The notes: generated by a model from the sequence alone, not told the origin. Counted from the stretch's first letter, positions 10,672 to 64,000 are shown. The stretch: DNA of 64,000 bases from an uncultured Gammaproteobacteria bacterium (GCA_964522405.1 CAZFTR010000003.1:35711-99710), one strand, 5' to 3'. Translations and numbers: made by a program.

Positions 10672-10749
10672 TTAGCTAAAATTAGCAGAAAATCTCGCCT
10701 AGGCGAGATTTTTGTGTTATAATATGCTTGCTGTTTGTTAATATTTTCT

Positions 10750-45811: not shown

Positions 45812-46071
45812 CAAGAGTAATTTTTTTTGATAGCTTGTAGTTAAGTATGAGTAATATAAAAACAAACAACTTCTTTTTCTTTTTTGGAGATTCCGCTAGG
45901 CGGTAAGTCTTTTTCAAAAGATTTGTTCACCGCCAAAAGCGGTGTTTTTTTCTACTCAATTTTGGTTTGACAACGGTATTTAGGTAAATATCATTGTCAG
46001 TCCAAAAGCATTTGCCTAGGACTAACTGCTCTTTCTTTTTTTGTTTTTTCTTCGGCACAGGGGTCTATTCC

Positions 46072-47136: not shown

Positions 47137-47573
47137 CCACAAAATTTATTGACTGATTTTGTATATATGCTAATCTATAATTAGTATGAATCTAAAAAAT
47201 AGTCAAAAATTCATTATTCTGCCAGTGACTCCCTCCTAATTTGGCGGTTTTTTAGAACATATTTACCTCAACCCGCCAAAAAGGCGGGATTTTATTTATT
47301 TGGCTAATTTAAGATAAATCCCTTGACTAAACCATCTAAATTTGCTAATTTAAATTGTTAAATAGTGTTAAGATTAGAAGTTGATAAATAATATGATTAT
47401 TTTACAACTTTTGTTCTTTACAGTTGATGCTAGAAATTGTCCTTGTCTATTGATTTGCTGAATTTTCAGTGCATCAATAGGCAAGGACAGCTCTGTCCGG
47501 GCCGGTACGGGCATGACGTCCAAGCTGGCTTTGCCAGACAACCACCACGAAGCAGAGGGAGTCGAGAAGGCAA

Positions 47574-48950
47574 TTGGCCACGAAGCGACATCGAAACAAT
47601 TACGAGCGGGTTCGCAACAGACTCGCTGAACTCTTCACCAACGTCCCACGTGTTGCACTGGGACAGCGATTGACGCTGGGGCTTGAGGAGGAGTTCCAGT
47701 TCGTTCAGTCGACCGGCCTTCCCGGCCAGGCCTACCCCGTCATCGAGGGTGTCAGCCGGATGGAGGGCTACGAAGCTGTCTACGACGACATCTTCACTGA
47801 CGAGCTGATAGCTGCCCGTCATCCGGTTTTCGGGGGGCTGGGCTGGGATGCCGGCTACTCTCTGGTCGAGTGGGATTCCCCGCCTGTCACTCGAGTACAG
47901 ACGGCCGACGCTCTGCGCAACCAGATGCTCTGCACGGTGCTGCCGCTCGCAGGCCGAAACAGGCTGACGGTGGCGGGTATCGGCAGACTGCCTCTCGGCA
48001 AGGGCAGATCTGAGAGCTGGAAGCGCAAGGGTCGCTATGAGACCATGCGTTCCTGCTACGGGCCGGAGATCAACGCCGCTACCATGTGTGCGGCTCGCCA
48101 GGTCTCGGTCGGCACGCGGAGTATGCGTCACCAGATCAAGGTGACCAACACCTTCCTGGCGCTCTCGGGCGCCATCACGGCCATGACCGCCAACTCTCCG
48201 ATTCACTGCGGTCGAGCGCACAAGAAGATGCTGGCTTCGCGTCAGTTCTTCTGGTCCTCGTTCGCTGAGGCGAGTCGGGTCGGAGTCCCCAACCGACCCT
48301 TCGGCGGTCTCGGCTCTCTCCTCGACTGGCTGCTCGGCGAGAAGCTGCTCTTCTACAAGAAGGATGGCCAGTACGTCAAGTGCGGTCAACTCTTCTGGAG
48401 GGCGGCGGCTCGCTACGTCAACGACGACGAGATGTTCACGCAGATGGCACTGCTCCACATCGGCACCTGCTGGCAGGAGGCGCGGGCACGCATTCTCAAC
48501 GGTACGGTCGAGTTCCGCTCCATGTGCCAGCAGCCTCAGTCCACTGGTGCTGCCTGCGAGGCTCTGATCGTCGGACTGGCTGAGAACGTCGGCGAGGCCT
48601 GGGATCTGGTTCTGACCCACACCTGGGATCAGTGGCGAGAGAGTCGCGATCGTGGAGCCTGCCTCAGCTTCGGCGCCAAGGTCGGTCGCGAGCCCATGGT
48701 TCGAGTCTGCAACAGCGTGCTCAACGTGGCTGAGCGTGGACTCAAGATGCGTAAGTTGCGCGAAGAGCGCTATCTGCGCCCCTTCCGCGAGCGCGTCCTG
48801 CGCCGTCGGGCCCCGGCTCTCGACCAGCTTCGTTCCTGGGGCAAGGGTGGGCGCCAGCAGCTGATCCAGGACTCGGCCTACGAGATTGAGGCGTTGCCCA
48901 GCTACAGCAGCTACCGCGACCAGCTCGAGGCCATGGCCAGCTGCGCCTAG
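47574..48950 (+). CDS. Glutamate-cysteine-ligase family 2 (GCS2/YbdK-type) carboxylate-amine ligase; strongly GC-rich
   Basis: LTLGLEEEFQFVQSTGL matches the GCS2 N-terminal signature. GC-rich third codon positions. The annotated start is TTG, and the true start may be the in-frame TTG just before TLGLEEEF. The minus-strand ORF 47466..48974 is an antisense shadow. Confidence 0.55.
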   Translation: MATKRHRNNYERVRNRLAELFTNVPRVALGQRLTLGLEEEFQFVQSTGLPGQAYPVIEGVSRMEGYEAVYDDIFTDELIAARHPVFGGLGWDAGYSLVEWDSPPVTRVQTADALRNQMLCTVLPLAGRNRLTVAGIGRLPLGKGRSESWKRKGRYETMRSCYGPEINAATMCAARQVSVGTRSMRHQIKVTNTFLALSGAITAMTANSPIHCGRAHKKMLASRQFFWSSFAEASRVGVPNRPFGGLGSLLDWLLGEKLLFYKKDGQYVKCGQLFWRAAARYVNDDEMFTQMALLHIGTCWQEARARILNGTVEFRSMCQQPQSTGAACEALIVGLAENVGEAWDLVLTHTWDQWRESRDRGACLSFGAKVGREPMVRVCNSVLNVAERGLKMRKLREERYLRPFRERVLRRRAPALDQLRSWGKGGRQQLIQDSAYEIEALPSYSSYRDQLEAMASCA

Positions 48951-49208
48951 CATCAACGACCGAATCGCCGTCATCAGGGAGACGGCGTGTAGGGAGGGAA
49001 TTGGGCGGAGTGTGTGCGTGTCATGCGTAGCACACCGCCCCGGTTCTTGTGCAAATAAGTTTATTGTTTGTAAAAGAAACTTTAATAGTGAGTAATCAAT
49101 AGTGTTTAAGCACTATTGATTTTTTTATTTAATAAATCTTAATCAGTAACAAAATTGCCAGTAAGTTTTTTTTGTGTTAATCTTCACCTCATAAATTATA
49201 AAATTCTT

Positions 49209-51997: not shown

Positions 51998-52453
51998 ATG
52001 TCACAAGAAATTGAACCATCCGGTTTTAGTCGAGAGGCAGAACCTTCCCACGAAACCAAGGAGTCAAAAGAAAAAGAACTAAGCCAGGAATTAAAAGCTG
52101 CTGCTGCCATGGAGCGCGCTGATTATCTGGCTGGTGAAGTGAAGCAAAGTAAGAAACAAATGCAAAATATTATTGTGCACATGCAGCAGGTTTTAAATAC
52201 TATTCGTCAGTTGCGAGCACAGCTTCAGCTTTCTACAGATCAAGATGTTGAATCAGTTGAACAGGATAAAGAAAGGGTTGAAAAATTGAAAAAGAAAATT
52301 GCTGAATATTCTGATGAACTTTTGAAAATGAAAGATGAACTTATTGCTGAACAAATGCAAGAATTACAAAATCAAGGAAAAGTGACAAATGATGCACTGA
52401 AAGAAACAGCAGAGAAAATGGTTGATGAAATTTTAAAAGTAGCTCAAGAATAA
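51998..52453 (+). CDS. Hypothetical coiled-coil protein
   Basis: Heptad-rich, charged, with no TM segment. It precedes the prepilin-like genes. Confidence 0.35.
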   Translation: MSQEIEPSGFSREAEPSHETKESKEKELSQELKAAAAMERADYLAGEVKQSKKQMQNIIVHMQQVLNTIRQLRAQLQLSTDQDVESVEQDKERVEKLKKKIAEYSDELLKMKDELIAEQMQELQNQGKVTNDALKETAEKMVDEILKVAQE

Positions 52454-52460
52454 TTTTACT

Positions 52461-54236
52461 ATGCGCCTGTCAAAACAAAACCAAGGATTTACTTTGATAG
52501 AGATATTGGTGTCATTGGCTATTTTTGCTTTGTTTGTGGTTGGAATTTATGGTGGAATTCAGTTAGTTTTCAGAATTGTTTATCAATCTCGAGTTACTAT
52601 TATTGAGTCAGCAATTCTCAATGAACAAGTTGAAATAGTTCGTAATTTAGCTTTTGCTGATGTTGGGATTGTCGGAGGAAGTCCATCTGGTCTCCTTGCT
52701 CGCACTGTGACTACCACCAGAAATAATATTGATTTTGAAATAACTCGAACCATTAGAAATATTGATGACGCTTATGATGGAACTGTTGGGGGTAATCCAA
52801 ATGATACTGCTCCTGCGGATTATAAATTGGTGCAAATTGAAATAAATTGTTCAAGTTGTAATCAGAGAAATCCGTTATCAGTGCAAACCTATGTGTCACC
52901 AAAATATCTGGAAGGTAATCCAGAAAATGGCGCATTATTTGTTCAAGTTTTTGATGCCAGTGCTCTACCGGTGCAAGGTGCCCAAGTTCATGTAGTTGCA
53001 ACTTCAACTGCTGTACCTGTTGATTTTACAGACACAACTGACAATGATGGGATGTTGCGCATTGTCGACCTTAGTCAGGGTCTTGGAGCTTATGATATTA
53101 CAGTTAGTAAATCCGGATTTACTAATGATGCCACTCTGAGAGCAACTCAATCAATTCCAAATCCGGTTAAGCCACCAGCTTCTGTCATTGCTCAAGATGT
53201 TAGTGAGATCAGTTTTGCAATTGATCAGATTTCTTCAGTAGATATTTCAACTATTGATGAGCAGTGTCAAGTAGTTGCTTCTGTGCCTTTTACTTTTCGT
53301 GGAACAAAATTATTGGGTACAGACCCTAATACTCTAAAGGTAAACAGCTCGGTTCAGACCAGTGGCAGTGGAACTTATACTTTTCCTTCTTTGGAGTGGG
53401 ATTCTTACGCAGTTTCTGTCAGTGATTATGATTTGATTGGTAGTATTCCAAATATTCCTTTTACATTGTTACCAGCATCAAATCAGCCAGTTCAGTTAAT
53501 AGTTGGGTCAAATGCTAGCAATTCACTTTTGATTAGTGTCAGAGATGGGATTACAGGACAGCCAGTGCCAAATGCAAGTGTTCAAGTAAGTTCCGGAGGA
53601 TTTGATCAGACCAAAATCACTGGTGTTGGAAGTACGCGACAAACTGATTGGTCTCTCGGATCTGGACAGTTATTTTTTTCTAATCAATCACAGTATTGGT
53701 TTGATGATGGTGGTATTGATGTAAATAATCCGGATGGAGATATTAAATTATTGCAAATTGGACAAAACTACGTTGCTTCAGGCGAGCTTGAATCTTCAAT
53801 TTTTGATCTTGGTACAGGTGTTGATTATGTAAATATAATTTGGGAGCCAATTTCCCAGCCAGAAGATACAGATTTGAAGTTTAGAATTGCAACTGCTGAC
53901 AATACAAATCCATCAGCTTGGGATTATTTCGGATATGATGGAACTACAAGTACTTATTATACAATTGAAAATTCTGTAATAAATTCTCTTCATGACGGAG
54001 ACAGGTATTTGAGATATAAAGCATATCTCGGCACTAGTAATTCAACATCAACTCCAGTTTTTTCTGATATCTCTTTTACTTTTACCAACAGCTGCACTCC
54101 GCCCGGCCAGGCCTATTATACTCCGAGCTCTGGAAATTATGATGTGCAAATTACTCATGGAAGTTATCAAGTTTATAATACCAATGTTGAAGTTAGTGGT
54201 GATGTATTTTTAACTGCTGACTTGGTGGCACAATAA
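52461..54236 (+). CDS. Large (591 aa) prepilin-like protein with a class III signal (G/FTLIE) and beta-rich extracellular domains
   Basis: MRLSKQNQGFTLIEILVSLAIFALFVV is a type IV pilin N-terminus. Several Ig/carbohydrate-binding-like beta segments follow. Confidence 0.7.
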   Translation: MRLSKQNQGFTLIEILVSLAIFALFVVGIYGGIQLVFRIVYQSRVTIIESAILNEQVEIVRNLAFADVGIVGGSPSGLLARTVTTTRNNIDFEITRTIRNIDDAYDGTVGGNPNDTAPADYKLVQIEINCSSCNQRNPLSVQTYVSPKYLEGNPENGALFVQVFDASALPVQGAQVHVVATSTAVPVDFTDTTDNDGMLRIVDLSQGLGAYDITVSKSGFTNDATLRATQSIPNPVKPPASVIAQDVSEISFAIDQISSVDISTIDEQCQVVASVPFTFRGTKLLGTDPNTLKVNSSVQTSGSGTYTFPSLEWDSYAVSVSDYDLIGSIPNIPFTLLPASNQPVQLIVGSNASNSLLISVRDGITGQPVPNASVQVSSGGFDQTKITGVGSTRQTDWSLGSGQLFFSNQSQYWFDDGGIDVNNPDGDIKLLQIGQNYVASGELESSIFDLGTGVDYVNIIWEPISQPEDTDLKFRIATADNTNPSAWDYFGYDGTTSTYYTIENSVINSLHDGDRYLRYKAYLGTSNSTSTPVFSDISFTFTNSCTPPGQAYYTPSSGNYDVQITHGSYQVYNTNVEVSGDVFLTADLVAQ

Positions 54237-54247
54237 TTTTTTGAAAA

Positions 54248-54868
54248 ATGTTGAAAAAAATAATTAAAAATCAAAATGGATTTACAGTGCTGGAATTAAC
54301 AGTTGCAGTGGCAATTTTTGCTATTTTGAGTTTGGCAGTTTCATGGTTGGTAATCAGAAGTTGGAGATCAAATGCTGTAATTTGGGAACAGCTCACCACT
54401 CAAAATGATGGAAGAAAAGCTGTAAAGCAAGTTGTAGATGATGTTCGTCGAGCAGAAGAATCAAGTCTTGGTTCATTTCCAATTGTTCTTGCTGATGATT
54501 ATGAATTGGCCTTTTACGCAAATATTGATAATGATAGTATTCGCGAAAGAGTTAGATTTTGGCTTGATGATTCAAATTTGAAAAAAGGCATAATTGAGCC
54601 AACTGGAAATCCTCTGCAATATGACATCCAAACAGAGACAGAAGTAATAATAGCAAGTGATGTGGTCAATACTACCAGTTCAGTTCCGGTTTTTTCATAT
54701 TATGATTCTAGTTATACGGGCGAAGAGTCGGCAATGATAACCCCTGCCAATATTACTGATCTTAGAGTGGTAAAAGTTCAATTGGAACTTGAAAAAGATC
54801 CAACAGAAACACCAGTTCCGCTCCATGTTGAAAGTACAGTGCAGATTCGTAATTTAAAAGATAATTAA
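54248..54868 (+). CDS. Minor (pseudo)pilin with type IV prepilin N-terminus
   Basis: MLKKIIKNQNGFTVLELTVAVAIFAILSLAV. Confidence 0.7.
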   Translation: MLKKIIKNQNGFTVLELTVAVAIFAILSLAVSWLVIRSWRSNAVIWEQLTTQNDGRKAVKQVVDDVRRAEESSLGSFPIVLADDYELAFYANIDNDSIRERVRFWLDDSNLKKGIIEPTGNPLQYDIQTETEVIIASDVVNTTSSVPVFSYYDSSYTGEESAMITPANITDLRVVKVQLELEKDPTETPVPLHVESTVQIRNLKDN

Positions 54869-54869
54869 T

Positions 54870-56267
54870 TTGATGATGTTTGTAAAAAAAATACTCAAAG
54901 AAATATTATTGAGCAAATCAGGTAGCATGCTGGTCTTTGTGATGATTTTTGGGTTTATGGCTTTTACTGTGATTATTTTGGGGGTAAGTGGTTATGCCAT
55001 GTTTGAAAACAAAGCCTCAAATCATCAAAAAGCTCGAACTGCTTCATTTCATATAGCAGAAGCTGGTGTAAATTATTATCGTTGGCATCTAGCACATAAT
55101 CCAACTGATTATCAGGATGGAACAGGTCAGCCTGGTCCCTACCTTCATGAGCATAAGGATAAAGATGGAAATCTAGTTGGCTATTTTTCTCTTGAAATTG
55201 ATGAGCCGTTGTCAGGTTCAACTATTGTGGTTGTTCGTTCAACTGGTTGGTTGGCAAGTGAACCAAATATCACCAGAACTATTCAAGTGCGCGTGGGTTT
55301 TCCAGCTTTAACTGATTATTCTTTTGTTGAAAATTCAAATATGAATTTTAGTCCAACAACTCAAGTTCATGGAAAAGTACATGCAAACGGAGGAATAAAA
55401 TTTGATGGTACGACTGACGCAGTTATACAGAGTGCAAAGGAAACTTACCAGTATGGATATCAGACTAAGCCGGGAATTTGGGGAGATGGTGGACCTACAG
55501 AGCTCTGGGATTTTCCAGTAGCTCCAAAAGATTTTAATTCTATAAGTGCTGATTTGGCTGCTGTTCGTGATCTTGCGGATAATGGGGGAATTCATCTTAA
55601 TTCTTCTGGTCAAGAGGGTTGGCATATTGTTTTTAAAGCAAATGGTACTTTTGATTTATATAGGGTTACTCAGAGACAGTGTTATTATGGAAATGGTTAT
55701 TTTTGGTGGTGGTGGTGGGTTGGGGATACTCATTGTTATGATATTCAGAGTGAGACTTTTGTACAAAATTATCAGATTCCTGAAAATGGAGCAGTTTTTA
55801 TAGAAGATGATGTTTGGGTTGATGGTGTGGTCGATGGAAGAGTTACTATTGGAGCTGGTAGATTTCCTGTTCTTGAATCTACTTATCAGGAAATTTACCT
55901 AAATGGAAATATAACTTATGAAGAGCAGGCCAGTGATGATGTTCTCGGGCTTATTGCTCAGGGCGATGTTATTGCTCCATATGATTTGCCGGATGATTTA
56001 GTTATAAATGCCGCAGTATTATCCCAATTTAAAAAAATTATCAGACCTTATTACCACAGCTCTTATAATCCAAGTATCAAAAATAGTCTGACATTTTTAG
56101 GGTCACAAATTTCTTATGATGGTGGTGGTTGGAAATGGGGTAACCCAGTTGTTTCCGGTTTTGTTAATACTAATTATATTTATGATGGAAATCTCAGGTA
56201 TTTTCCGCCGCCCGGCTTTCCTGTTGGAAATACTTATGAGCTTATAAGTTGGGAAGAAATTGAGTGA
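54870..56267 (+). CDS. PilX-like minor pilin / pilus-associated protein (N-terminal TM plus large ectodomain)
   Basis: N-terminal hydrophobic segment MLVFVMIFGFMAFTVIILGV. Translationally coupled to the preceding pilin gene. Contains a WWWW motif. Confidence 0.45.
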   Translation: MMMFVKKILKEILLSKSGSMLVFVMIFGFMAFTVIILGVSGYAMFENKASNHQKARTASFHIAEAGVNYYRWHLAHNPTDYQDGTGQPGPYLHEHKDKDGNLVGYFSLEIDEPLSGSTIVVVRSTGWLASEPNITRTIQVRVGFPALTDYSFVENSNMNFSPTTQVHGKVHANGGIKFDGTTDAVIQSAKETYQYGYQTKPGIWGDGGPTELWDFPVAPKDFNSISADLAAVRDLADNGGIHLNSSGQEGWHIVFKANGTFDLYRVTQRQCYYGNGYFWWWWWVGDTHCYDIQSETFVQNYQIPENGAVFIEDDVWVDGVVDGRVTIGAGRFPVLESTYQEIYLNGNITYEEQASDDVLGLIAQGDVIAPYDLPDDLVINAAVLSQFKKIIRPYYHSSYNPSIKNSLTFLGSQISYDGGGWKWGNPVVSGFVNTNYIYDGNLRYFPPPGFPVGNTYELISWEEIE

Positions 56268-56352: not shown

Positions 56353-57234
56353 ATGAGTAAAGTTAGAAAAGGCGTAATTACTGTCGCTGGTCTTGGTACA
56401 CGTTTTTTACCAGCCACAAAAGCTATGCCAAAAGAGATGTTGCCAGTACTTGATAAGCCGGTAGTCCAATATATAGTAGAAGAAATGGCAGCAAGTGGAA
56501 TTACAGAAATAATATTTGTAACCAGTTCAAAGAAAACAGCAATTGAAGATCATTTTGATCGAAATCATGATTTTGAATGTGCATTAGAGAAGGCTGGAAA
56601 GTTTGAAAGATTAAAGCCATTGGTAGAATTATCCAAAAAAGTTCGTTTTTTCTATACCAGACAATCAGCTCCTCTTGGAAATGGTCATGCCCTGCTCTGC
56701 ACTAGGGAATTTATTGGAAATCAACCTTTTGCTTTTTCAGACGGGGACAGCATTATTGATTCCAAGACTCCCGTTATTAAGCAGTTGGTCAAAGTTTTCA
56801 ATAAGCAAAAGGCCTCTGTTATTGGGGTTCAGAGAATTGATGACAAAGAAGCAATGACTAAGTACGGGAATGTATATGCTAAGCCTCTTAAAGAAAAAAG
56901 AACTTATAAAGTAAGTGAATTTATAGAAAAACCAAAATTAAAAAATGTCTCACCGGAAGGATTAATAGTTGGTGGGATGAGATATATTTTCACCAGCGAT
57001 ATTTGGAATTTTCTTGAGAAACAGAGAAAAGGAAAGGGCGGGGAGATCTGGCTTGCCGACGCAGCAAACGCACTTGCCAAGAAAAAACCATTTTTTGCTT
57101 ATGAATATGAAGGAAAGTATTTTGATACCGGCAACAAGGCATCGCTGCTTAGAACCTCACTCCACTTTGCCATGAAAGATCATGATTTAAAATCAGAAGT
57201 TTTAAATTTATTAAAAGAAAAATCAGAAATATGA
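56353..57234 (+). CDS. galU: UTP--glucose-1-phosphate uridylyltransferase
   Basis: GVITVAGLGTRFLPATKAMPKEMLPVLDKPVVQYIVEEM N-terminus and GalU-type C-terminal motifs. Confidence 0.9.
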   Translation: MSKVRKGVITVAGLGTRFLPATKAMPKEMLPVLDKPVVQYIVEEMAASGITEIIFVTSSKKTAIEDHFDRNHDFECALEKAGKFERLKPLVELSKKVRFFYTRQSAPLGNGHALLCTREFIGNQPFAFSDGDSIIDSKTPVIKQLVKVFNKQKASVIGVQRIDDKEAMTKYGNVYAKPLKEKRTYKVSEFIEKPKLKNVSPEGLIVGGMRYIFTSDIWNFLEKQRKGKGGEIWLADAANALAKKKPFFAYEYEGKYFDTGNKASLLRTSLHFAMKDHDLKSEVLNLLKEKSEI

Positions 57235-58571
57235 TTTCTTTAAATAAAATCAGGATTTCAGCATTTGTATTTTTTCTTGCTGCGGGTTTTTTGGTGTTTG
57301 CTGGTGGGGTTGGGGCTGCAGCGGAAGGATATTGTTTTTATTTGGAACCACCGGGTTTAACAGATTTATGTTATAAATATGATAAAGCTGCAAATGAAAT
57401 AGATGCAGATAGTTTAGCAGGTTGCAATACTTGGTCAGAAGAGTTAACCAAGGGAGAGGCTTTCCCGGAAAAATTAGTCGGTGGTATAGAGTTAGAGAAA
57501 TTTTCTACTGGTTGTCCTGATTTAAATATGTTAGATGCTGACGGTTCAGTAATGTATAAAATGAGTCATGTCCAAGTAAAGACCGGTGATCAAATTATTT
57601 TGTTTCCTATCCCGGTTGGAGCTTTGGAGATAAATTCAGATGCTTTGGCTGGAATTTTACCTAATATTTCTCACCCTAAATTTGTTTCCAGCGCTAATAA
57701 GCAATTGAATCCGACATTAACCCTAGAGCAAGTAAAAAAAGCAATTCAATTATTACAAACAAAAACTTGTTGTGTTCCCAAAGATCCAGATGCTGGACTG
57801 AAGTGTGGGGTTGCTGAATTAACAGATTTTGTTAAATCAGGTTTAAATGACAAGAACATTGCTATAAATTCGCCATTTGACTTTAAGCAAATTGAGAATT
57901 GGATTAATCCGCAAAATCCAGCTCAACCAAAATGGACTGATTTGTTTAAATGTCCGGTTCCTAAAAATATCCTTGGAGGAGGATATGCACTTTATACTGA
58001 TATTTCATGTTCTAGCCCATCACCAGTCGAAGCGCCGTCAGATAAGTATAATCAACAGCAGGGTGGAGTTATTATTGCTATAAGCGGGTATTGTGGTAGA
58101 AGTGAATCTTATCAATACTGCGCTTGTGATAAGGAGATTACCAGTTGCTACAAAACAGACAAAGCAAATGAACTAGATTGTCAAAAGGAAGCAACTCAAA
58201 AATTTGGAGCAGGTGCTTTTTGTCAAAAAACCATTATTGGTCATTCATGTAGTTTTAAAAAAGGCGGTGAATATACTGGTCCTACAGGATTATCAAACGA
58301 AGAGCTAAAAGCCATGGTCAAAGGACTGCATAAACTTCAAACTACAGATATAAGAGTTTTGATTGGTAATGCCATCAGAGTTTTAATGGGAATTATGGGA
58401 AGTATCGCTCTTGCTATGTTTACACTTGGTGGAATTATGTTTATGACAGCTTCCGGTAACGCAGAAAAGACTAAAAAAGGAATCAATATTGTAGTTTGGA
58501 GTGGACTTGGTTTGATTGTTATAGTATCAAGTTATGCTCTGGTTGATTTTATTTTGAAGGTTTTGAAATAA
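57231..58571 (+). CDS. Pilin-module paralog 1: secreted cysteine-rich ectodomain (about 370 aa) plus C-terminal TrbC/VirB2-like two-helix membrane module
   Basis: Signal peptide. C-terminal LMGIMGSIALAMFTLGGIMFMTASGNAEKTKKGINIVVWSGLGLIVIVSSYALV matches the family motif shared by the eight paralogs. Start overlaps the galU stop (ATGA). Confidence 0.6.
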   Translation: MISLNKIRISAFVFFLAAGFLVFAGGVGAAAEGYCFYLEPPGLTDLCYKYDKAANEIDADSLAGCNTWSEELTKGEAFPEKLVGGIELEKFSTGCPDLNMLDADGSVMYKMSHVQVKTGDQIILFPIPVGALEINSDALAGILPNISHPKFVSSANKQLNPTLTLEQVKKAIQLLQTKTCCVPKDPDAGLKCGVAELTDFVKSGLNDKNIAINSPFDFKQIENWINPQNPAQPKWTDLFKCPVPKNILGGGYALYTDISCSSPSPVEAPSDKYNQQQGGVIIAISGYCGRSESYQYCACDKEITSCYKTDKANELDCQKEATQKFGAGAFCQKTIIGHSCSFKKGGEYTGPTGLSNEELKAMVKGLHKLQTTDIRVLIGNAIRVLMGIMGSIALAMFTLGGIMFMTASGNAEKTKKGINIVVWSGLGLIVIVSSYALVDFILKVLK

Positions 58572-58596
58572 ATATAGCCAATAGAAAAAGTTTCTT

Positions 58597-59970
58597 ATGA
58601 AAAAAAGGTTCACAAAAATTTTATTACTCTGCTTGTCTTTCTTGGTTCTTGGTTTTGGCTGTAAGGGTTTGAGTGAAGAGGAAATTGCTGCTTTTCAACC
58701 GGTAGTTTTGAATTATTGGACAGTTTACAATGATCTTGACATGCTTCGAGGATTTGCTGCAGAATACAAAAAAATACGACCTTATGTAACTATAAATATA
58801 CGACAAGTTAGATATGATGAATTTGATCGCTTGTTTACCAATGCGCTTGCTGACGATGTTGCTCCTGATTTAGTTTCTATGCACAATAGATGGGTTAGGG
58901 CTAATTCACATAGATTGTCTCCAATGCCTGAGAGTGTTGAGGTTTCAAGGTTAGTTGTTAAAAGTGAATTTAGCAAAGAAATAGAAGTCCTTCCGGAAAT
59001 AACTCAAATGCCTTCTATCCAATCTATGAAAAGTGCCTATGTTAAAACTGTGGTTGAGGATGCGGTTGTGGGTGGGCAGGTTTATGGTTTGCCAATAGCT
59101 ATGGATACTATGGCAATTTATTATAATAAGGGTTTACTTGATAAAGCCGGGATTCCGGAACCGCCGGCAGATTGGGATGAGTTTGTTGAGGCTGTAAAAA
59201 AGACAACTCGTTTTGATAGCACAGGTAGAATAATGCAATCAGGGGTTGCTTTGGGAACAGGGAAAAATATTGATAATTCTTTTGATATTTTATCACTTTT
59301 GATGATGCAGAGCGGTGTAAAAATGGCCAGTGGAGGAAGGGTAACTTTTGCTGATGGTTTGAAAAAAGCTCGAAGTTCACATCCTACTTTTCAAGCTTTG
59401 AGATTTTATAGTGATTTTGCTACGCCCACCAAAGAAGCATATAGCTGGAACAATGATCAAGAAAATGCACTTGATGCCTTTGTAAGAGGAAAAACAGCTT
59501 TTTATCTTGGGTTTGCTTTTGATCAGAGAAGAATAAGATCTCGAGCGCCTGGCATTGACCTGGAAGTAATACCTATGTTTCAGTTAAATCAGGCTTCGCC
59601 GGTTAATATTTCAAATTATTGGTTGGAGTCAGTGGTAAGAAGATCAAAAAATCAAAATGAGGCCTGGGATTTTATCAGATATATAACTGCGCTTTCAAGT
59701 GTACAAGTCTACACAGACAGAACTCTGCAACCAACCCCATACAGATCACAAATTGAAAGACAGATGGAAAATCCAGAATTGGAACCTTTTACTTCACAAG
59801 TACTTTTTGCAGAAAATTGGTTTAATGGCCGAAATTTTTCCAGTGCCAAAGAAGCTATCTCAAATATGATTGACACTTATCTTGAGCCATATTCACAAGA
59901 CAAGGATCCTCTAATGAGAGATAAGGAAATAATTAATAATGCTGCTAGTAGAGTTCAGCAGGCTATGTAA
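58597..59970 (+). CDS. ABC-transporter extracellular solute-binding lipoprotein (SBP family 1, sugar-type), embedded within the pilin-module array
   Basis: Lipobox LVLGFGC. The size and pattern fit SBP_bac_1 (WTVYND..., AFYLGFAFDQRR). Confidence 0.65.
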   Translation: MKKRFTKILLLCLSFLVLGFGCKGLSEEEIAAFQPVVLNYWTVYNDLDMLRGFAAEYKKIRPYVTINIRQVRYDEFDRLFTNALADDVAPDLVSMHNRWVRANSHRLSPMPESVEVSRLVVKSEFSKEIEVLPEITQMPSIQSMKSAYVKTVVEDAVVGGQVYGLPIAMDTMAIYYNKGLLDKAGIPEPPADWDEFVEAVKKTTRFDSTGRIMQSGVALGTGKNIDNSFDILSLLMMQSGVKMASGGRVTFADGLKKARSSHPTFQALRFYSDFATPTKEAYSWNNDQENALDAFVRGKTAFYLGFAFDQRRIRSRAPGIDLEVIPMFQLNQASPVNISNYWLESVVRRSKNQNEAWDFIRYITALSSVQVYTDRTLQPTPYRSQIERQMENPELEPFTSQVLFAENWFNGRNFSSAKEAISNMIDTYLEPYSQDKDPLMRDKEIINNAASRVQQAM

Positions 59971-59976
59971 TTTTTT

Positions 59977-60699
59977 ATGAAACTCTTAATATTTTTCTCA
60001 ACAGTTTTATTTCTAAGTTTTGTTTTTTTATTTTCTCCCGGTGTGGTGAGTGCAGAAGGTGATTGTGAGTTGAATTATGAAGATTTTGGACTTAAGTGTC
60101 AGCCTATAGCTGATTGTGGGGATTCTGCAGAAATAACAGCTCAGACTCAGAAACATCACTCGGATGTTGGTCAGGGTTCTTTAGTTGTTCAAAGTGGTAA
60201 AACTGTTATAACAGGTCAGTGCGCTGACGCAAATCAAGTTTGTTGTTTCAAAACAGGTTCAGCAACTTCCGGAAGTGCTGCAGGAACATCGTTTGAAAAG
60301 CCTACATCAGGTAATACTGATAGCTTTGTCCCTACAAAACCGGATAAATACTTAGGTCCGTTGCCTCCTTGTGCTTGGGCTGGTACTTGTAGAGGAATCA
60401 ATGATGTCCTCTCAGTTGCTGTGAAGTGGGGAAGTAGAATCTTTGGATTTATTGGTTCAATGGCATTTGTTATGTTTGTCTATGGTGGATTTATGATGAT
60501 GATTTCAATGGGAAATGCTGAAAGAGTAAAAAAAGGAACTGATATAATGGTGGCAGCTGTAGTAGGTTTGATAATTGCTTTCAGCGCTTATTTGATTGTT
60601 GGATTTATACTTGATGCAATCGGAGTTACAGATCCGCAATTTAGGGCTGTTGATAAAATAAGTGCTGTTTTTGATCTGGTGGGTGACAGATTCTTATAA
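59977..60699 (+). CDS. Pilin-module paralog 2: N-terminal Cys-rich ectodomain plus C-terminal TrbC/VirB2-like module
   Basis: IGSMAFVMFVYGGFMMMISMGNAERVKKGTDIMVAAVVGLIIAFSAYLIV. Confidence 0.6.
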   Translation: MKLLIFFSTVLFLSFVFLFSPGVVSAEGDCELNYEDFGLKCQPIADCGDSAEITAQTQKHHSDVGQGSLVVQSGKTVITGQCADANQVCCFKTGSATSGSAAGTSFEKPTSGNTDSFVPTKPDKYLGPLPPCAWAGTCRGINDVLSVAVKWGSRIFGFIGSMAFVMFVYGGFMMMISMGNAERVKKGTDIMVAAVVGLIIAFSAYLIVGFILDAIGVTDPQFRAVDKISAVFDLVGDRFL

Positions 60700-60748
60700 G
60701 TGTGCTATAGTATAATACTTTTATTTCGGGATAAAGATTTATCATTTT

Positions 60749-61552
60749 ATGAAAAAAAGTACCAAAATTTTAGTTATAATGTCTTGTCTTGTTTTTGTAG
60801 GTTTAGTTTTCGTGCCGCTTGTTGCTGAGGCAACCAATGTTAGTGTGGTTAAACTTCAAAATCCTCTTGGTACTACCAATATTCCTCAGATAATAGGTGG
60901 TTTTATTGCTAGATTGTTAGCGTTAATTGGTTCAATAGCGCTTCTCATGTTTATAATTGGTGGGTTCATGTGGCTTACTTCTGCCGGTAATCCTGAGAAA
61001 ATCCAAAAAGGTATACAAACTATGATTTGGTCTGCTATTGGAGTGTTTATCATTTTCAGCTCTTATGCTATACTACAGCTAATCTTAAAAGGGCTGAGTG
61101 TAGAGAGTTATGCTGACGCACCGAATCCTTTTACTGTAGAAGAGGGAGTTGATGGTACATCATCCGAAGGAAAGCAAGGTTGTTACTGTATTTTCAAAGA
61201 AGATGAAGAAGCTGGTGAAAAGAAAGTAACCGCGCCTGTTAAGCAGGGTGATTGTACGGATTATGCAGAAGCAGCAAAAGAAACAATAAAATCATGTAAA
61301 TGGTATGAGACAGCTTCAGCAGCTGCAGCTACTGAAAAACAAAGTGAATGTCAGAAAAATTACAGCAAATTTGGTTTAAGCTGTAATACTAAAACAACTT
61401 GCGATAAGTCATCTGAATCAAAATCAAAAATCAAAAGCGCTTGGGCAGAAAAATCAAAACCACATAAGAATTCAAAAAAGAAATCATATTTTATAACTTG
61501 GCAGTGTCTGGGACAGCCGACAAATGTGGTATGTTGTGTGAAGAAGCCTTAA
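60749..61552 (+). CDS. Pilin-module paralog 3: N-terminal TrbC/VirB2-like module plus C-terminal Cys/Lys-rich domain
   Basis: IGSIALLMFIIGGFMWLTSAGNPEKIQKGIQTMIWSAIGVFIIFSSYAIL. Confidence 0.6.
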   Translation: MKKSTKILVIMSCLVFVGLVFVPLVAEATNVSVVKLQNPLGTTNIPQIIGGFIARLLALIGSIALLMFIIGGFMWLTSAGNPEKIQKGIQTMIWSAIGVFIIFSSYAILQLILKGLSVESYADAPNPFTVEEGVDGTSSEGKQGCYCIFKEDEEAGEKKVTAPVKQGDCTDYAEAAKETIKSCKWYETASAAAATEKQSECQKNYSKFGLSCNTKTTCDKSSESKSKIKSAWAEKSKPHKNSKKKSYFITWQCLGQPTNVVCCVKKP

Positions 61553-61603
61553 TTTTAAAAGTATTACTATGAATACTATCCAAAATAGAAGGGGGGTGAT
61601 TAC

Positions 61604-62047
61604 ATGTATTGGCTAACAAAACTTGCTAAACACAAAGTTGCTATGAGTTTTGCTGTAGCACTTGCTTTCGGTTTATTGCTAGCTCCGGCTGCAAATGTTG
61701 GTGCTGCTGCAACTGATACATTCGGAATATCCCCTGTTGGAAGTGAATTAAAAACAACTCTTGGAGACACTGACCTTCGAACAACTATTGCCAGATTGAT
61801 TAATGTTGCTTTGAGTTTGCTTGGTATCGTAGCAGTTGTGATCATCCTAATGGGTGGATTTAAATGGATGACTGCTGGTGGTAATGAAGATAAAGTAGCA
61901 GAGGCTAGAAAATTAATCTTCTCTGGTATTATCGGACTTGCAATCATCATGACCAGTTGGGCAATTGCTCTATTTGTATTTAACAAATTGGCAGAAGCTA
62001 CAACCGGAACAACAGCTGGAATACCTACTGAATTCCAAATTAAGTAA
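61604..62047 (+). CDS. Pilin-module paralog 4: core-only TrbC/VirB2-like small membrane protein
   Basis: LLGIVAVVIILMGGFKWMTAGGNEDKVAEARKLIFSGIIGLAIIMTSWAIALF. Confidence 0.65.
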   Translation: MYWLTKLAKHKVAMSFAVALAFGLLLAPAANVGAAATDTFGISPVGSELKTTLGDTDLRTTIARLINVALSLLGIVAVVIILMGGFKWMTAGGNEDKVAEARKLIFSGIIGLAIIMTSWAIALFVFNKLAEATTGTTAGIPTEFQIK

Positions 62048-62167
62048 AATTGATGAGTGGGGCAGGGCTGGTCTCTGCCCCCTATTTTACAGCAGGAAAT
62101 TAAATATAAGATTGTTCAAACTTTTATATATAATTTTCTGCAAAACTGCAGAACTAAAAATATTTCT

Positions 62168-62596
62168 ATGTATAAAAAAATAATATTAGCCTTTGGTGGT
62201 TTTTTTGTAATTTTTGGAGCATTGCTAAGTGTTGACATAGTAAGAGCTCAGCAAACCCCAATTTGTGATTTTGACCCGGTTACAGATCCTCTGGGACTTG
62301 CTTGTGCCAGTGCTACAGGATTAAAAGCAGATGATCCTCGTCTTATAGCAGGAAGAATTATAAATGTAACATTAGGAATTTTGGGAATTTTAGCAACAGT
62401 TTTGATTGTCTATGCAGGATTTAGATGGATGACCGCAGGTGGAAATGAAGAAAATGTAAAAACAGCTCAAAAAATTCTTATCTCAGCAGTAATTGGTTTG
62501 CTTATTATTCTGACAGCTTATTCTGTAACTGCTTTTGTGATTAAAAAGGCTTATTCCGCGACTACCGGAGTACAGTACGGAACACCGGTACCATAA
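62168..62596 (+). CDS. Pilin-module paralog 5: core-only TrbC/VirB2-like small membrane protein
   Basis: ILGILATVLIVYAGFRWMTAGGNEENVKTAQKILISAVIGLLIILTAYSVTAF. Start placed at the internal ATG (MYKKIILAFGG...), which gives a signal peptide. Confidence 0.6.
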   Translation: MYKKIILAFGGFFVIFGALLSVDIVRAQQTPICDFDPVTDPLGLACASATGLKADDPRLIAGRIINVTLGILGILATVLIVYAGFRWMTAGGNEENVKTAQKILISAVIGLLIILTAYSVTAFVIKKAYSATTGVQYGTPVP

Positions 62597-62621
62597 TTTG
62601 AAATTTCTATAAATATTTTCA

Positions 62622-63365
62622 ATGCTTATGAAGTTTAAAACAAAGTTAAAAGTAGCAGTTTTTGCAGTCTTGGTAGTTTGTGCAGGATTTAGCGCTAGTG
62701 TAGTATATGGGCAAAATTCTAGTGACCCATATGGTTTGGATACCACTGCCGGAGCAGCACAATTAACAACAGATAAAGATGTGCCTACCATTATTGGTAA
62801 TGTGGTTGGTGCGGCACTTTCTCTGGTTTCTGTTTTGTTTTTTATACTTATGATCTATGGTGGAGTTCGTTGGATGCTGGCGCGCGGACATGAAGATGAG
62901 GCTAGAAAAGCACTAGATACTATTATCGGAGCAATAATCGGTATTTTGATTATTCTTGGAGCATACGCTATAACTAGATTTATTTTGGAGGCGCCTGGAG
63001 CTGGTAGTTCTGGTGGCGGTGGAGGTACTACCCAAGAACAACAGGTTGGTTCATGTACACCAGACCCAGCAGTTGATGACGATGATATAGGCACTGACTT
63101 AGATCCAAAATGTATGGCTTTAAATATTGGCCTTGTTGTGGGTGATGAGGCTGGAAATACTCAAAAATGTGCTGCTGCGGAAATAAACGGCGTTAAAGGG
63201 GTTTGTGTAGTCGATCCTGTTGCAGCTAATAATGGTGCAGCATCATGCATGGTCGCAGATGATGGAGGAACAAAATATAAAGCAGCATGTGCAAGTCTCT
63301 CCGGAGAGACAGCGTGTAAAGGTCATAAATCAGGCGCAGCTAGTATTTGTAAATTTGAAAAATAG
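62622..63365 (+). CDS. Pilin-module paralog 6: TrbC/VirB2-like module plus Gly-run and Cys-rich C-terminal domain
   Basis: LVSVLFFILMIYGGVRWMLARGHEDEARKALDTIIGAIIGILIILGAYAIT, then SSGGGGG and a Cys-rich tail. Confidence 0.6.
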   Translation: MLMKFKTKLKVAVFAVLVVCAGFSASVVYGQNSSDPYGLDTTAGAAQLTTDKDVPTIIGNVVGAALSLVSVLFFILMIYGGVRWMLARGHEDEARKALDTIIGAIIGILIILGAYAITRFILEAPGAGSSGGGGGTTQEQQVGSCTPDPAVDDDDIGTDLDPKCMALNIGLVVGDEAGNTQKCAAAEINGVKGVCVVDPVAANNGAASCMVADDGGTKYKAACASLSGETACKGHKSGAASICKFEK

Positions 63366-63374
63366 GCTTCTTCT

Positions 63375-64000
63375 ATGCATTTCCTTAGAAATATTATACT
63401 GGGATTTATAGCATCTTTTCTGATCGTGGGCGCAACATACGCTGCCTTTGATTTGACTGATGCTGGCAGCTCTCTTGGTAAAGTGACTAAAAAATCCGGA
63501 ATTGATCAAAAGGATATTGGTAAATACGTGGGAAATGTTATAGCTAGTGCTTTGGCCATAGTTGGATTGATATTTTTGATACTCATGGTCTATGCCGGGT
63601 TTAAATGGATGCTCTCCAGAGGAAATGAAGATGAAGTTACCAAAGCAAGAGAGACAATAATAGCGGCAACAATTGGGCTCATCGTGATAGCGGCAGGATA
63701 TGCCATAACTAGATTTATTACTGATCAGATAATCGCCAAAGCGCCTGATACAGAATTTAGTGGGCCTAGTGGACAGTCAGATACAGTTGGTGGTGTAGGT
63801 GCAGCATGTTGTATTGTTCCTTCCACTCCGGATCATTGTCATTCAGAGTCTGATCCAGGCGGGCTTTATACAGCTAGTATGAGAACTCCGAAACAGTGTT
63901 TAAGTATTTCTGAAAATTCTGCTTCATGTGCTTATGGTGAGGGTTGGGAAATGTATGAGACAGAGACTTTTGCTGATTGCTTAAAAGTATTTGAATGTTG
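63375..64000 (+). CDS. Pilin-module paralog 7 (3'-partial; runs off the window): TrbC/VirB2-like module plus Cys-rich C-terminal domain
   Basis: Hand translation from the ATG at 63375: ...IVGLIFLILMVYAGFKWMLSRGNEDEVTKARETIIAATIGLIVIAAGYAIT... then CCIVPSTPDHCH... Not in the ORF track because no stop lies within the window. Confidence 0.55.
   Translation, partial: MHFLRNIILGFIASFLIVGATYAAFDLTDAGSSLGKVTKKSGIDQKDIGKYVGNVIASALAIVGLIFLILMVYAGFKWMLSRGNEDEVTKARETIIAATIGLIVIAAGYAITRFITDQIIAKAPDTEFSGPSGQSDTVGGVGAACCIVPSTPDHCHSESDPGGLYTASMRTPKQCLSISENSASCAYGEGWEMYETETFADCLKVFEC

What the first reader, a model, noticed from the sequence alone, without database searches (positions are those of the whole stretch)
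57231..64000. Tandem array of eight TrbC/VirB2-like pilin-module paralogs with swappable cysteine-rich ectodomains, split by a solute-binding lipoprotein gene
Seven complete paralogs and one 3'-partial paralog share a two-helix module. The consensus is roughly I..V..LLG..A.V.I.MGGF.WMTAGGNE(E/D).V..A...I..A.IGL.II..SYAI..F.

Two paralogs are core-only, at 147 and 142 aa. The others fuse the module to variable Cys-rich, Gly-rich or Lys-rich extracellular domains. These domains sit N-terminal in paralogs 1-2 and C-terminal in paralogs 3, 6 and 7.

The module resembles conjugative T4SS pilins (VirB2/TrbC-type; I recall a Pfam family named T4SS_pilin). No VirB4, VirB6 or VirD4 gene lies in the window.

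An ABC substrate-binding lipoprotein gene is inserted between paralogs 1 and 2, and the array begins overlapping galU. The modular display of diverse Cys-rich domains on a common membrane or pilus scaffold suggests a surface-variation or host-attachment system. That would fit an epibiotic lifestyle.
Basis: partly seen in the sequence, partly recalled or inferred. Interest (0 to 1): 0.7.

Follow-up and report, generated by a model that had tools for sequence, protein, structure and literature searches.

The report
VirB2-like pilin array with cysteine-rich add-ons
An ultra-small (Patescibacteria/CPR) bacterium carries a row of conjugation-type pilin genes, a kind of array already described in this phylum; half of the copies here carry disulfide-rich surface modules, and the array always travels with a sugar-binding lipoprotein gene and galU.

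Summary
The window holds seven paralogs (six complete, one cut by the window end), not eight. All seven pass Pfam's own threshold for T4SS_pilin (PF18895). They reach TrbC/VirB2 (PF04956) only below threshold.

Tandem VirB2-like pilin arrays are already published for Patescibacteria (Wang 2023; Quiñonero-Coronel 2025: 441 arrays of 2-11 genes). The core idea is therefore known.

Four things look new in 29 related loci, as far as I could find:
- The locus type is conserved: [type IV pilus-like minor pilins]-galU-(1-3 pilins)-SBP lipoprotein-9 to 15 pilins. No VirB4 lies within 10 kb.
- One short, cysteine-free paralog (W4, 61604-62047) is the only one with an extended Shine-Dalgarno site. It is followed by a strong hairpin, so it is probably the major subunit.
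- Half of 157 pilins carry an N- or C-terminal extension averaging 9.6 cysteines, with an even count in 91%. The core module has almost none.
- The same small Cys modules occur on either side of the core.

No DNA repeats suggest switching. Pilus assembly and adhesion remain inferred.

The parts
56353..57234 (+). galU-like UTP-glucose-1-phosphate uridylyltransferase. Its stop overlaps the start of the first pilin gene by 4 bp.
   Evidence: TIGR01099 galU E 8e-87 (291 bits, below NCBIfam's cut-off of 326.8); Pfam NTP_transferase E 5e-29. The overlap is shown. A galU homolog lies directly upstream of the pilin/SBP block in every related locus that has upstream sequence.
57231..58571 (+). Pilin W1 (446 aa): signal peptide, a ~335-aa N-terminal ectodomain with 16 Cys, and a C-terminal T4SS_pilin hairpin.
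   Evidence: PF18895 at 30.3 bits, residues 374-441. Cys counts. Against the positional ortholog in L004, only the core and the membrane-proximal ~90 aa of the ectodomain align. No other homolog of the ectodomain was found among 5.8e9 proteins.
58597..59970 (+). Orphan solute-binding lipoprotein (SBP_bac_1; lipobox-like GFGC). It is a conserved member of the locus.
   Evidence: Pfam SBP_bac_1 E 6e-22 and SBP_bac_8 E 3e-20. It is 48% identical over its full length to the L003 ortholog. Of 26 metagenomic homologs (35-56% identity), 24 are flanked by T4SS_pilin genes. No permease or ATPase gene is adjacent.
59977..60699 (+). Pilin W2 (240 aa): N-terminal 6-Cys module 'B' (residues 30-91), then the pilin core.
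   Evidence: PF18895 at 31.2 bits. Its module is similar to the C-terminal module of W3 (blastp E 1e-3; regex match).
60749..61552 (+). Pilin W3 (267 aa): pilin core, disordered linker, 4-Cys module 'A' (145-185), and a Lys-rich 6-Cys module 'B' (201-264).
   Evidence: PF18895 at 34.9 bits; TrbC at 21.6 bits (E 2.6e-4, sub-threshold). AF2: hairpin pLDDT ~90, module A 59-87, module B low. Thirty-four homologs of 160-395 aa all carry Cys-rich extensions.
61591..61599 (+). Extended Shine-Dalgarno site GGGGGGTGA, 4 nt before the W4 start codon.
   Evidence: It is one of only two RGGRGGTGA sites in the 64-kb window. The other array genes have AT-rich upstream regions. The same motif precedes 13 of 16 W4-like genes and 0 of 141 other pilin genes in related loci.
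61604..62047 (+). Pilin W4 (147 aa): core-only, no Cys. Candidate major subunit.
   Evidence: Best PF18895 score in the window (41.5 bits). Most conserved paralog: 68-74% core identity to A05/A06/B04, against 44-56% for the others. AF2: signal helix 6-25 and helical hairpin 56-90/95-134 at pLDDT ~90.
62059..62091 (+). GC-rich terminator or attenuator hairpin plus a T-rich tail, right after W4.
   Evidence: Nine pairs, 7 of them G-C. Equivalent hairpins follow the W4 orthologs in L004 (7040-7075, 15 pairs) and L003 (7086-7113). Across loci, the 80-nt downstream MFE has a median of -25.4 versus -7.8 kcal/mol for other pilin genes.
62168..62596 (+). Pilin W5 (142 aa): core-only, with 2 Cys in the mature N-tail.
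   Evidence: PF18895 at 37.0 bits. The ATG at 62168 gives a normal signal peptide and matches the gene call on contig L001.
62622..63365 (+). Pilin W6 (247 aa): core, Gly-rich linker, and a C-terminal 8-Cys domain.
   Evidence: PF18895 at 40.1 bits. Cys counts.
63375..64000 (+). Pilin W7 (more than 208 aa; 3' end cut by the window): core plus a C-terminal Cys-rich domain (7 Cys so far, begins with CC-I-V-P).
   Evidence: PF18895 at 30.5 bits. Translation. Related arrays continue for 9-16 genes in all.
51998..56267 (+). Context: type IV pilus-like minor pilin cluster (151 aa, 591 aa with N_methyl, 206 aa with N_methyl, 465 aa), directly upstream of galU.
   Evidence: N_methyl motif E 3.5e-8 and 3.4e-7. 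The same four genes precede galU in L008, L013, L015, L019 and L028, and in part in L003.

Best explanation
This is the proximal part of a chromosomal array of VirB2-like 'T4SS_pilin' (PF18895) genes. Such arrays are already known from Patescibacteria. This one belongs to a Magasanikbacteria-like (ABY1) lineage.

Proposed mechanism, step by step:
1. Each product is exported by Sec and loses a signal peptide.
2. It sits in the membrane as a two-helix hairpin. The short GN(E/D)E..K loop faces the cytoplasm, and both termini face outward. (Steps 1-2 are inferred from sequence and an AF2 model.)
3. One paralog, W4, is short, Cys-free and the best conserved. It is the only one with an extended Shine-Dalgarno site, and a strong hairpin follows it. 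It is probably made in excess as the major subunit. (Inferred from signals conserved in 13 loci.)
4. The other paralogs are minor subunits. About half carry disulfide-stabilised modules on the N- or the C-terminus, built from a small shuffled repertoire. The parts furthest from the membrane diverge fastest. (The sequence pattern is shown; the role is inferred.)
5. These modules are most likely binding or contact modules. They would be displayed on a T4SS-dependent pilus or stalk, or on the membrane around it, towards a host or partner cell.
6. Polymerisation would depend on a VirB4/TrsD/VirB3 machine encoded elsewhere in the genome, as in published Magasanikbacteria genomes. (Inferred; not testable from the window.)
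7. galU and the orphan sugar-binding lipoprotein are conserved co-transcribed partners. They point to a carbohydrate link: glycosylation of the subunits, or capture of host sugars at the contact site. (Speculative.)
For: - Family: 7 of 7 window copies, and 28 of 28 copies in L003 and L004, hit PF18895. The window copies all exceed the gathering score. Sub-threshold TrbC/VirB2 hits span the full model.
- Topology: each protein has a signal peptide plus two ~25-35-residue hydrophobic helices around a 12-15-residue polar loop. The AF2 hairpin has pLDDT ~90.
- Cysteines: they are confined to the extensions. Extensions average 9.6 Cys, with an even count in 91%; the core module averages 0.17. CPR bacteria are enriched in MdbA-like oxidoreductase and VKOR.
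- Major subunit: the extended SD site occurs in 13 of 16 W4-like genes versus 0 of 141 others (Fisher 1.7e-16). The downstream hairpin MFE is -25.4 versus -7.8 kcal/mol (Mann-Whitney 2.4e-6).
- Module shuffling: module A is C-terminal in 11 proteins and N-terminal in 2. Module B is N-terminal in W2 and P0131 and C-terminal in W3, P0129 (twice), P0148 and P0161.
- Old, stable array: positional orthology holds across genomes, and there are no long DNA repeats.
- Conserved synteny with galU and SBP in about 25 loci.
- Literature: pilin arrays are widespread in Patescibacteria and essential in Southlakia. Magasanikbacteria carry TrsD-VirB4-VirB3 far from their VirB2 hits.
Against: - No VirB4, VirB6 or VirD4 lies in the 64-kb window or within 10 kb of any of about 10 long related loci. 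The link to a T4SS rests on family membership and on other genomes.
- No VirB2-type pilus has been seen in any monoderm. Neighbouring genes are type IV pilus genes, not T4SS genes.
- A profile of the module finds no solved conjugative pilin.
- hhalign against A. tumefaciens VirB2 gives only 34% probability.
- Ectodomains of 100-335 aa on every subunit would be hard to pack on a conjugative-type filament.
- The ectodomain models have low confidence, and no binding function was shown.
- The related loci are not phylogenetically independent, so the P values are optimistic.
Confidence: 0.6

Rival explanations
1. Membrane-anchored display without a filament. The two-helix hairpin is only a membrane anchor, or a ring or channel component. 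The proteins stay in the cytoplasmic membrane as a family of surface receptors or adhesins, independent of any T4SS.
For: - No T4SS gene lies near any of these arrays.
- Gram-positive-type T4SSs normally lack pili.
- The nearest NCBIfam model is the Mbov_0395 'pilin-like' protein of wall-less Mycoplasma ICEs.
- The large ectodomains (up to 335 aa) look sterically awkward for a VirB2-type filament.
- Structure searches give no specific pilin match.
Against: - One Cys-free, core-only paralog with special expression signals is conserved. That is what a polymerising major subunit looks like, and it is hard to explain for a set of independent receptors.
- Core-only members are the large majority of the wider family (120 of the top 120 hits).
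- In Southlakia the pilin genes lie inside the T4SS cluster and are essential.
Confidence: 0.28
2. Antigenic or phase variation system. The paralogs act as cassettes that recombine or are expressed one at a time to vary the surface.
For: - Many divergent paralogs sit in tandem.
- The analogy with Bartonella and Anaplasma VirB2 paralogs is drawn in the literature.
- The distal ectodomain parts diverge fastest.
Against: - The only repeated DNA is a 54-nt stretch at 61-76% identity. There are no invertible elements or homopolymer tracts.
- Every copy is a complete gene with its own signal peptide, in one orientation, with 6-120-bp gaps.
- Each paralog has a positional ortholog in other genomes, so the array is old and stable.
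Confidence: 0.05
3. Accessory components of the type IV pilus (T4P) encoded next door, not of a T4SS.
For: A T4P-like minor pilin cluster lies directly upstream, on the same strand, in the window and in at least 5 related loci. PilB, PilC and PilM are 12-16 kb upstream, and PilB lies near the array in L002.
Against: The proteins lack the class III (N_methyl) prepilin signal that the true T4P pilins next door have. They have Sec-type signal peptides and two membrane helices. They score on T4SS_pilin and TrbC models only.
Confidence: 0.05

Closest known systems
VirB2-like pilin arrays of Patescibacteria (Quiñonero-Coronel et al. 2025, PMC12102498; Southlakia epibionticum ML1 T4SS cluster, Wang et al. 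2023, PMC10633639; TM7x 'Sec secreted array')
   Same: - Same Pfam family (PF18895).
- Tandem, sequence-divergent paralogs (here 21-48% core identity; about 25% on average in the survey).
- Sometimes interrupted by a non-pilin gene.
- Chromosomal and close to oriC (dnaA lies 48 kb away in the window).
   Different: - Related arrays hold 9-16 genes, against a published range of 2-11.
- They are never within 10 kb of virB4.
- They are always preceded by galU and an SBP lipoprotein gene, and often by T4P-like minor pilins.
- Half of the members carry Cys-rich ectodomains.
- One member carries distinct expression signals.

None of these points is mentioned in the papers I could read. The published table lists only 1-3 VirB2 hits for two Magasanikbacteria genomes.
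TrbC/VirB2/TraA conjugative pilins of diderm T4SSs (PF04956)
   Same: Signal peptide, two hydrophobic helices joined by a short polar loop, and both termini on the outer side. Sub-threshold full-length HMM alignments (E 2.6e-4 to 0.017). The weak hhalign match covers the mature N-terminus and helix 1.
   Different: - Below the family threshold.
- No match to solved pilins by sequence profile or by fold search.
- No adjacent VirB3-B11.
- Canonical pilins are about 70-aa mature peptides without globular domains; here up to 335 aa are fused.
Mbov_0395 family pilin-like conjugal transfer protein of Mycoplasma ICEs (NCBIfam NF045849)
   Same: It is the only NCBIfam model that the core modules hit, over 70-74 of 80 positions. 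Both belong to monoderm-type T4SS contexts.
   Different: Scores of 13-33 bits are below the cut-off of 40. The Mycoplasma protein is a single gene in a mobile element, not a chromosomal multi-gene array, and it has no ectodomains.
Multi-copy VirB2 paralogs of Bartonella and Anaplasma T4SSs (as cited in PMC12102498)
   Same: Several divergent VirB2 paralogs in tandem, thought to diversify host contact.
   Different: Those are short pilins next to a complete diderm VirB/D4 system. No fused domains are described in the text I read.
Modular type IV pilins with grafted globular domains (for example in Streptococcus sanguinis; from my own knowledge, not checked here)
   Same: The concept is the same: a conserved polymerisation module carries a variable functional domain, and one unadorned major pilin goes with several decorated minor ones.
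   Different: Unrelated fold and machinery: a class III signal peptide, a single N-terminal helix, and PilB/PilC assembly.

Membership tests
Pfam PF18895 T4SS_pilin | HMM score at or above the gathering score (26.6 bits) | tested here: met
   All 7 window copies score 30.3-41.5 bits. All 28 copies in L003 and L004 match at E <= 1e-3.
Pfam PF18895 T4SS_pilin | Small exported protein with a signal peptide and two hydrophobic helices joined by a short polar loop | tested here: met
   Hydropathy segments and N-terminal sequences. AF2 hairpin 56-90/95-134 at pLDDT ~90.
Patescibacterial VirB2-like pilin array (literature definition: at least 2 pilin genes in tandem, or separated by one non-pilin gene) | Tandem arrangement of divergent paralogs in a Patescibacteria genome | tested here: met
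   Seven copies on one strand with gaps of 6-120 bp and one intervening SBP gene. The closest loci are Magasanikiibacteriota MAGs.
Patescibacterial VirB2-like pilin array | Presence of a VirB4-type T4SS in the same genome | not testable with these tools
   Only the window is available, and the 110-kb source contig could not be read. There is none in the window. Two published Magasanikbacteria genomes have TrsD-VirB4(-VirB3) far from their VirB2 hits.
Pfam PF04956 TrbC/VirB2 pilin | HMM score at or above the gathering score (27.9 bits) | tested here: not met
   The best score is 21.6 bits (W3). W6 scores 17.1 and W5 15.7; the other copies are not reported.
Pfam PF04956 TrbC/VirB2 pilin | Detectable similarity to experimentally solved conjugative pilins | tested here: inconclusive
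Pfam PF04956 TrbC/VirB2 pilin | Polymerises into a phospholipid-containing helical filament on a VirB machine | not testable with these tools
   No multimer prediction or experiment was available.
NCBIfam NF045849 Mbov_0395 pilin-like conjugal transfer protein | Score at or above the cut-off of 40 bits | tested here: not met
   Scores are 13.3-32.9 bits.
ABC transporter substrate-binding protein (SBP_bac_1) | SBP fold family match | tested here: met
   PF01547 E 6e-22 and PF13416 E 3e-20.
ABC transporter substrate-binding protein (SBP_bac_1) | Adjacent permease and ATPase genes of an ABC importer | tested here: not met
   Pilin genes flank it on both sides in the window. In 24 related loci it is flanked by galU or pilin genes.
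Recombination-based antigenic variation locus | Long, near-identical DNA tracts shared between copies, or silent partial cassettes | tested here: not met
   The longest shared stretch is 54 nt at 61-76% identity, and all copies are complete genes.

The most novel reading that the evidence does not exclude
The VirB2-type hairpin has become a general display scaffold in one Patescibacteria lineage. One highly expressed plain subunit builds a T4SS-type filament or stalk in a monoderm cell. A dozen co-transcribed minor subunits graft interchangeable disulfide-knotted modules onto either outward-facing terminus. A dedicated sugar-binding lipoprotein and UDP-glucose supply (galU) are built into the same operon, next to the type IV pilus minor pilins. 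Together these would form a previously undescribed composite organelle for contact with, or feeding on, a host cell.
Probability: 0.25. Interest if true: 0.75.

Novelty: new variant of a known kind. Interest (0 to 1): 0.55.

Why it matters
The T4SS and its pilin array are essential for the epibiotic growth of the one Patescibacterium that can be manipulated genetically. Yet their role is described as 'completely unknown'.

This locus type adds handles that can be tested:
- a candidate major subunit, recognisable by sequence signals alone;
- a catalogue of small Cys-rich modules that can be expressed and tested for binding;
- two conserved non-pilin partners (a sugar-binding lipoprotein and GalU) that point to carbohydrate chemistry at the contact site.

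It also shows that surveys centred on virB4 neighbourhoods miss the largest arrays. If decorated VirB2-type pilins really polymerise, that would change the view that conjugative-type pilins are bare ~70-residue peptides and that monoderm T4SSs have no pili.

Tried and rejected
- **Reading past the window end.** Exact-protein look-ups reached only 1.7-2.7-kb Logan contigs. The 110-kb NCBI contig is on record but cannot be read. The one genome-contig scan returned relatives only, at 61% identity or less.
- **Profile of the module against PDB sequences.** Nothing relevant.
- **Ectodomain identity.** No Pfam or NCBIfam family matched any extension. phmmer of the W3 ectodomain against 1.84e9 representatives found only itself and two junk repeat proteins. 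The W1 ectodomain has no homolog. The AF2 confidence for the modules is too low for a fold assignment.
- **Mobile-element origin.** tblastn of W4 against 72,556 plasmids and 50,697 phages gave no match.
Only weak, scattered sub-threshold hits appeared (RTA1, DUF6112, Colicin_V, TctB). Rejected.
- **Glycosyltransferase at the distal end as a conserved part.** One is seen in L002, L003, L004 and L012 (plus DUF2079 in L026), but from different families, and it is absent elsewhere. I did not count it as part of the system.
- **Gene-conversion cassette model.** Rejected.

Full report
**What is in the sequence**

Between 57231 and the window end there are seven same-strand ORFs that share an ~82-residue module:
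- W1, 57231-58571
- W2, 59977-60699
- W3, 60749-61552
- W4, 61604-62047
- W5, 62168-62596
- W6, 62622-63365
- W7, 63375->64000 (truncated by the window end)

An HMM built from the module and run over all six frames of the 64-kb window finds these seven (E 1e-31 to 1e-35) and nothing else (next hit E 0.7). The consensus, the two core-only copies (147 and 142 aa), the side on which each extension sits, the SBP gene between copies 1 and 2, and the 4-bp overlap with galU are all correct.

Core identity between paralogs is 21-48%, with a mean of 32%.

**Family**

All seven copies exceed Pfam's gathering score for PF18895 T4SS_pilin (30.3-41.5 bits against 26.6). TrbC/VirB2 (PF04956) is hit only below threshold, though over nearly the whole model (W3: 21.6 bits, E 2.6e-4). 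The only NCBIfam model hit is the Mycoplasma ICE 'Mbov_0395 pilin-like' family, also below its cut-off.

Each protein has three parts:
- a Sec-type signal peptide;
- two long hydrophobic helices;
- a 12-15-residue polar loop (T-A-x-G-N-E-E-x-V-x-K-A) between the helices.

AlphaFold2 with 122 homologs models W4 as a signal helix plus a hairpin (56-90/95-134) at pLDDT ~90. This topology puts both termini outside the cell, which fits Cys-rich domains on either end.

Structural and PDB-sequence comparisons could not confirm or refute a specific relationship to solved conjugative pilins, because a bare hairpin is uninformative.

**Genomic setting**

The window is a Patescibacteria chromosome of about 36% GC. 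It contains:
- rnpA, dnaA and dnaN at 6.8-11.1 kb, so the array lies about 48 kb from the origin on the leading strand;
- PilB, PilC and PilM at 41-45 kb;
- rpsF and ssb;
- a cluster of type IV pilus-like minor pilins (51998-56267, two with N_methyl motifs) directly upstream of galU.

No scanned ORF hits a VirB4, VirD4 or VirB6 family. The nearest relatives are Magasanikiibacteriota MAGs, which the published survey classes as ABY1.

**What is already known**

Three sources describe these arrays:
- Wang et al. 2023 reported essential predicted pilin genes inside the Southlakia T4SS cluster.
- Quiñonero-Coronel et al. 2025 reported 441 VirB2 arrays of 2-11 genes in 383 Patescibacteria assemblies. 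[quoted passage not shown]
- A 2025 T4SS review repeats this.

The central idea of the finding is therefore published. I found no paper that describes fused Cys-rich domains on these pilins.

**New observation 1: a conserved locus type**

Two Magasanikiibacteriota loci are syntenic with the window:
- L003: galU-pilin-SBP-15 pilins (16 PF18895 genes in all).
- L004: 12 PF18895 genes.

A metagenome scan with the SBP protein returned 26 homologs at 35-56% identity. Of these, 24 are flanked by T4SS_pilin genes; one exception is a 1.7-kb contig and the other a 25%-identity outlier.

The common order is [rpsF-ssb]-[four T4P-like minor pilin genes]-galU-(0-3 pilins)-SBP-9 to 15 pilins. galU is directly upstream wherever upstream sequence exists. 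The genes downstream of the arrays vary: rpoB, photolyase, DUF2079 and assorted glycosyltransferases. No VirB4-like protein occurs within 10 kb.

The SBP is as conserved as the pilin cores (48% identity to L003) and has no adjacent permease. It is therefore a component of the locus, not an insertion.

In the published survey's table, two Magasanikbacteria genomes show TrsD-VirB4(-VirB3) several hundred genes away from only 1-3 VirB2 hits. In one genome, two of those hits are separated by a single gene, as W1 and W2 are here. These large arrays seem to have been under-counted.

**New observation 2: a probable major subunit**

W4 stands out from the other paralogs in three ways:
- It is the best conserved: 68-74% core identity to its positional orthologs, against 44-56% for the others.
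- It is the only array gene with an extended Shine-Dalgarno site (GGGGGGTGA, 61591-61599).
- It is followed at once by a GC-rich hairpin with a T-rich tail (62059-62091).

The same holds in L003, L004 and L002.

Over 157 complete pilin genes from these loci:
- 13 of 16 W4-like genes (at least 50% core identity) carry RGGRGGTGA-N2-8-ATG, against 0 of 141 other genes (Fisher 1.7e-16).
- The 80 nt downstream fold at a median of -25.4 versus -7.8 kcal/mol (Mann-Whitney 2.4e-6).
- All W4-like genes are short (119-170 aa), and 13 of the 16 have no cysteine.

The loci are related to one another, so these P values overstate independence. Still, the pattern holds from 50% to 74% identity. A strongly translated plain subunit followed by an attenuator is the classic arrangement for a major pilin. 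That reading is an inference.

**New observation 3: Cys-rich, shuffled ectodomains**

Of the 157 genes, 79 carry an extension: 37 are C-terminal (at least 40 aa) and 42 are N-terminal. Extensions average 9.6 cysteines, with an even count in 91%. The core module averages 0.17 cysteines and core-only proteins 0.65.

By contrast, the 120 best hits to the core profile across 5.8e9 proteins are all 102-146-aa core-only proteins. Decorated members are thus a distinct subset.

Two recurrent modules can be written as motifs:
- **Module A** (C-x-C ... C ... C-x-W, about 45 aa). It is C-terminal in W3 and ten other proteins, but N-terminal in B03 and P0124.
- **Module B** (six Cys, ending C-x3-12-CC-[VILFM], often followed by K-K; about 65 aa). 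It is N-terminal in W2 and P0131, and C-terminal in W3, P0129 (twice), P0148 and P0161.

Positional orthologs keep their cores but not their extensions:
- W3 has a C-terminal extension. Its ortholog A04 has none, and B03 has an N-terminal one.
- W1 and B01 align only in the core and the membrane-proximal ~90 residues.

None of the extensions matches a Pfam or NCBIfam family or any protein outside this group. CPR bacteria are enriched in MdbA-like oxidoreductase and VKOR, so extracellular disulfide formation is plausible.

**What it is not**

- Not a recombination-based variation locus. The only shared DNA is a 54-nt stretch at 61-76% identity, and every copy is a complete gene with a positional ortholog elsewhere.
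- Not on a known plasmid or phage.
- Not a holin or another small-membrane-protein family.

**Most likely mechanism and its weak points**

The proteins are Sec-exported hairpin subunits with both ends outside. W4 would be the bulk subunit. The decorated paralogs would be minor subunits that present disulfide-stabilised contact modules. Assembly would use the monoderm-type T4SS (TrsD-VirB4-VirB3) that relatives encode elsewhere.

The steps 'forms a filament', 'depends on VirB4' and 'binds host' are inferred, not shown. The consistent absence of T4SS genes nearby, the consistent presence of T4P minor pilins, and the size of some ectodomains keep the plain membrane-anchor model alive (about 0.3).

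The role of galU and the SBP is unknown. A carbohydrate link (glycosylation or sugar capture) is the simplest guess.

**Verdict**

It is best described as a new variant of that kind, for four reasons:
- the arrays are larger and detached from virB4;
- galU and the SBP are fixed partners;
- one member is a recognisable major subunit;
- Cys-rich domains are fused to either terminus in a modular way.

Interest is moderate to fairly high for specialists in CPR biology and T4SSs.

Noticed in passing
window 31913-33223 (-), 45994-47052 (+), 47466-48974 (-): Three gene-sized islands of 60-65% GC sit in a 33-37% GC genome, with AT-rich DNA between them. The first is a 436-aa protein with a weak pre-ATP-grasp hit, downstream of a SAM riboswitch (33325-33426, -). 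The second is a weak GCS2/YbdK-like carboxylate-amine ligase. The third is a 502-aa protein with no family. This looks like recent transfer from high-GC donors.
   Followed up: partly
window 51998-56267 (+); L008, L013, L015, L019, L028: A four-gene type IV pilus-like minor pilin cluster (151, 591, 206 and 465 aa; two have N_methyl motifs, and the 591-aa protein has a CarboxypepD_reg domain) is conserved directly upstream of galU and the VirB2-like array in at least six loci. Two different kinds of 'pilin' genes are therefore kept side by side.
   Followed up: partly
window 6845-11127: dnaN (6845-7969, -), dnaA (8227-9609, -) and rnpA (10735-11127, +) mark the replication origin region. GC skew turns positive from about 8 kb. 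No virB4 lies next to dnaA here, unlike what the 2025 survey reports for most Patescibacteria classes, including Paceibacteria and Microgenomatia.
   Followed up: partly
L004 290-661, 2852-3238, 17947-18303: Small ORFs of about 120 aa that resemble one another are scattered in the Magasanikiibacteriota locus. One is inserted between the first pilin gene and the SBP gene, and so interrupts the otherwise conserved order. From memory they resemble four-helix-bundle proteins encoded by 23S rRNA intervening sequences; I ran no family search on them.
   Followed up: no
L002 5998-6720 (-), L003 13868-15016, L004 12058-12759, L012 17339-18481 (-), L026 7265-9331: A glycosyltransferase-type gene often sits at the distal end of the arrays: Pfam GT2 in L002, an MGDG-synthase/GT28-like gene in L012, and DUF2079 in L026. 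The L003 and L004 genes look like GT4 and GT2 from their sequences only and were not scanned. The families differ between loci. With galU at the proximal end, this may hint at glycosylation, but it is not conserved enough to count as part of the system.
   Followed up: partly
window 34823-37579 (+) and 22460-23566 (-): A 918-aa protein whose only hit is DUF5667, and a 368-aa GGDEF-domain protein. Neither was examined further.
   Followed up: no
L002 and L005 (records CAYFPJ010000011.1, CAZHHN010000006.1): Two MAG contigs titled 'uncultured Gammaproteobacteria bacterium' carry T4SS_pilin arrays of 8 and 7 genes, with galU and SBP in L005. The taxonomic labels of these records look wrong.
   Followed up: no
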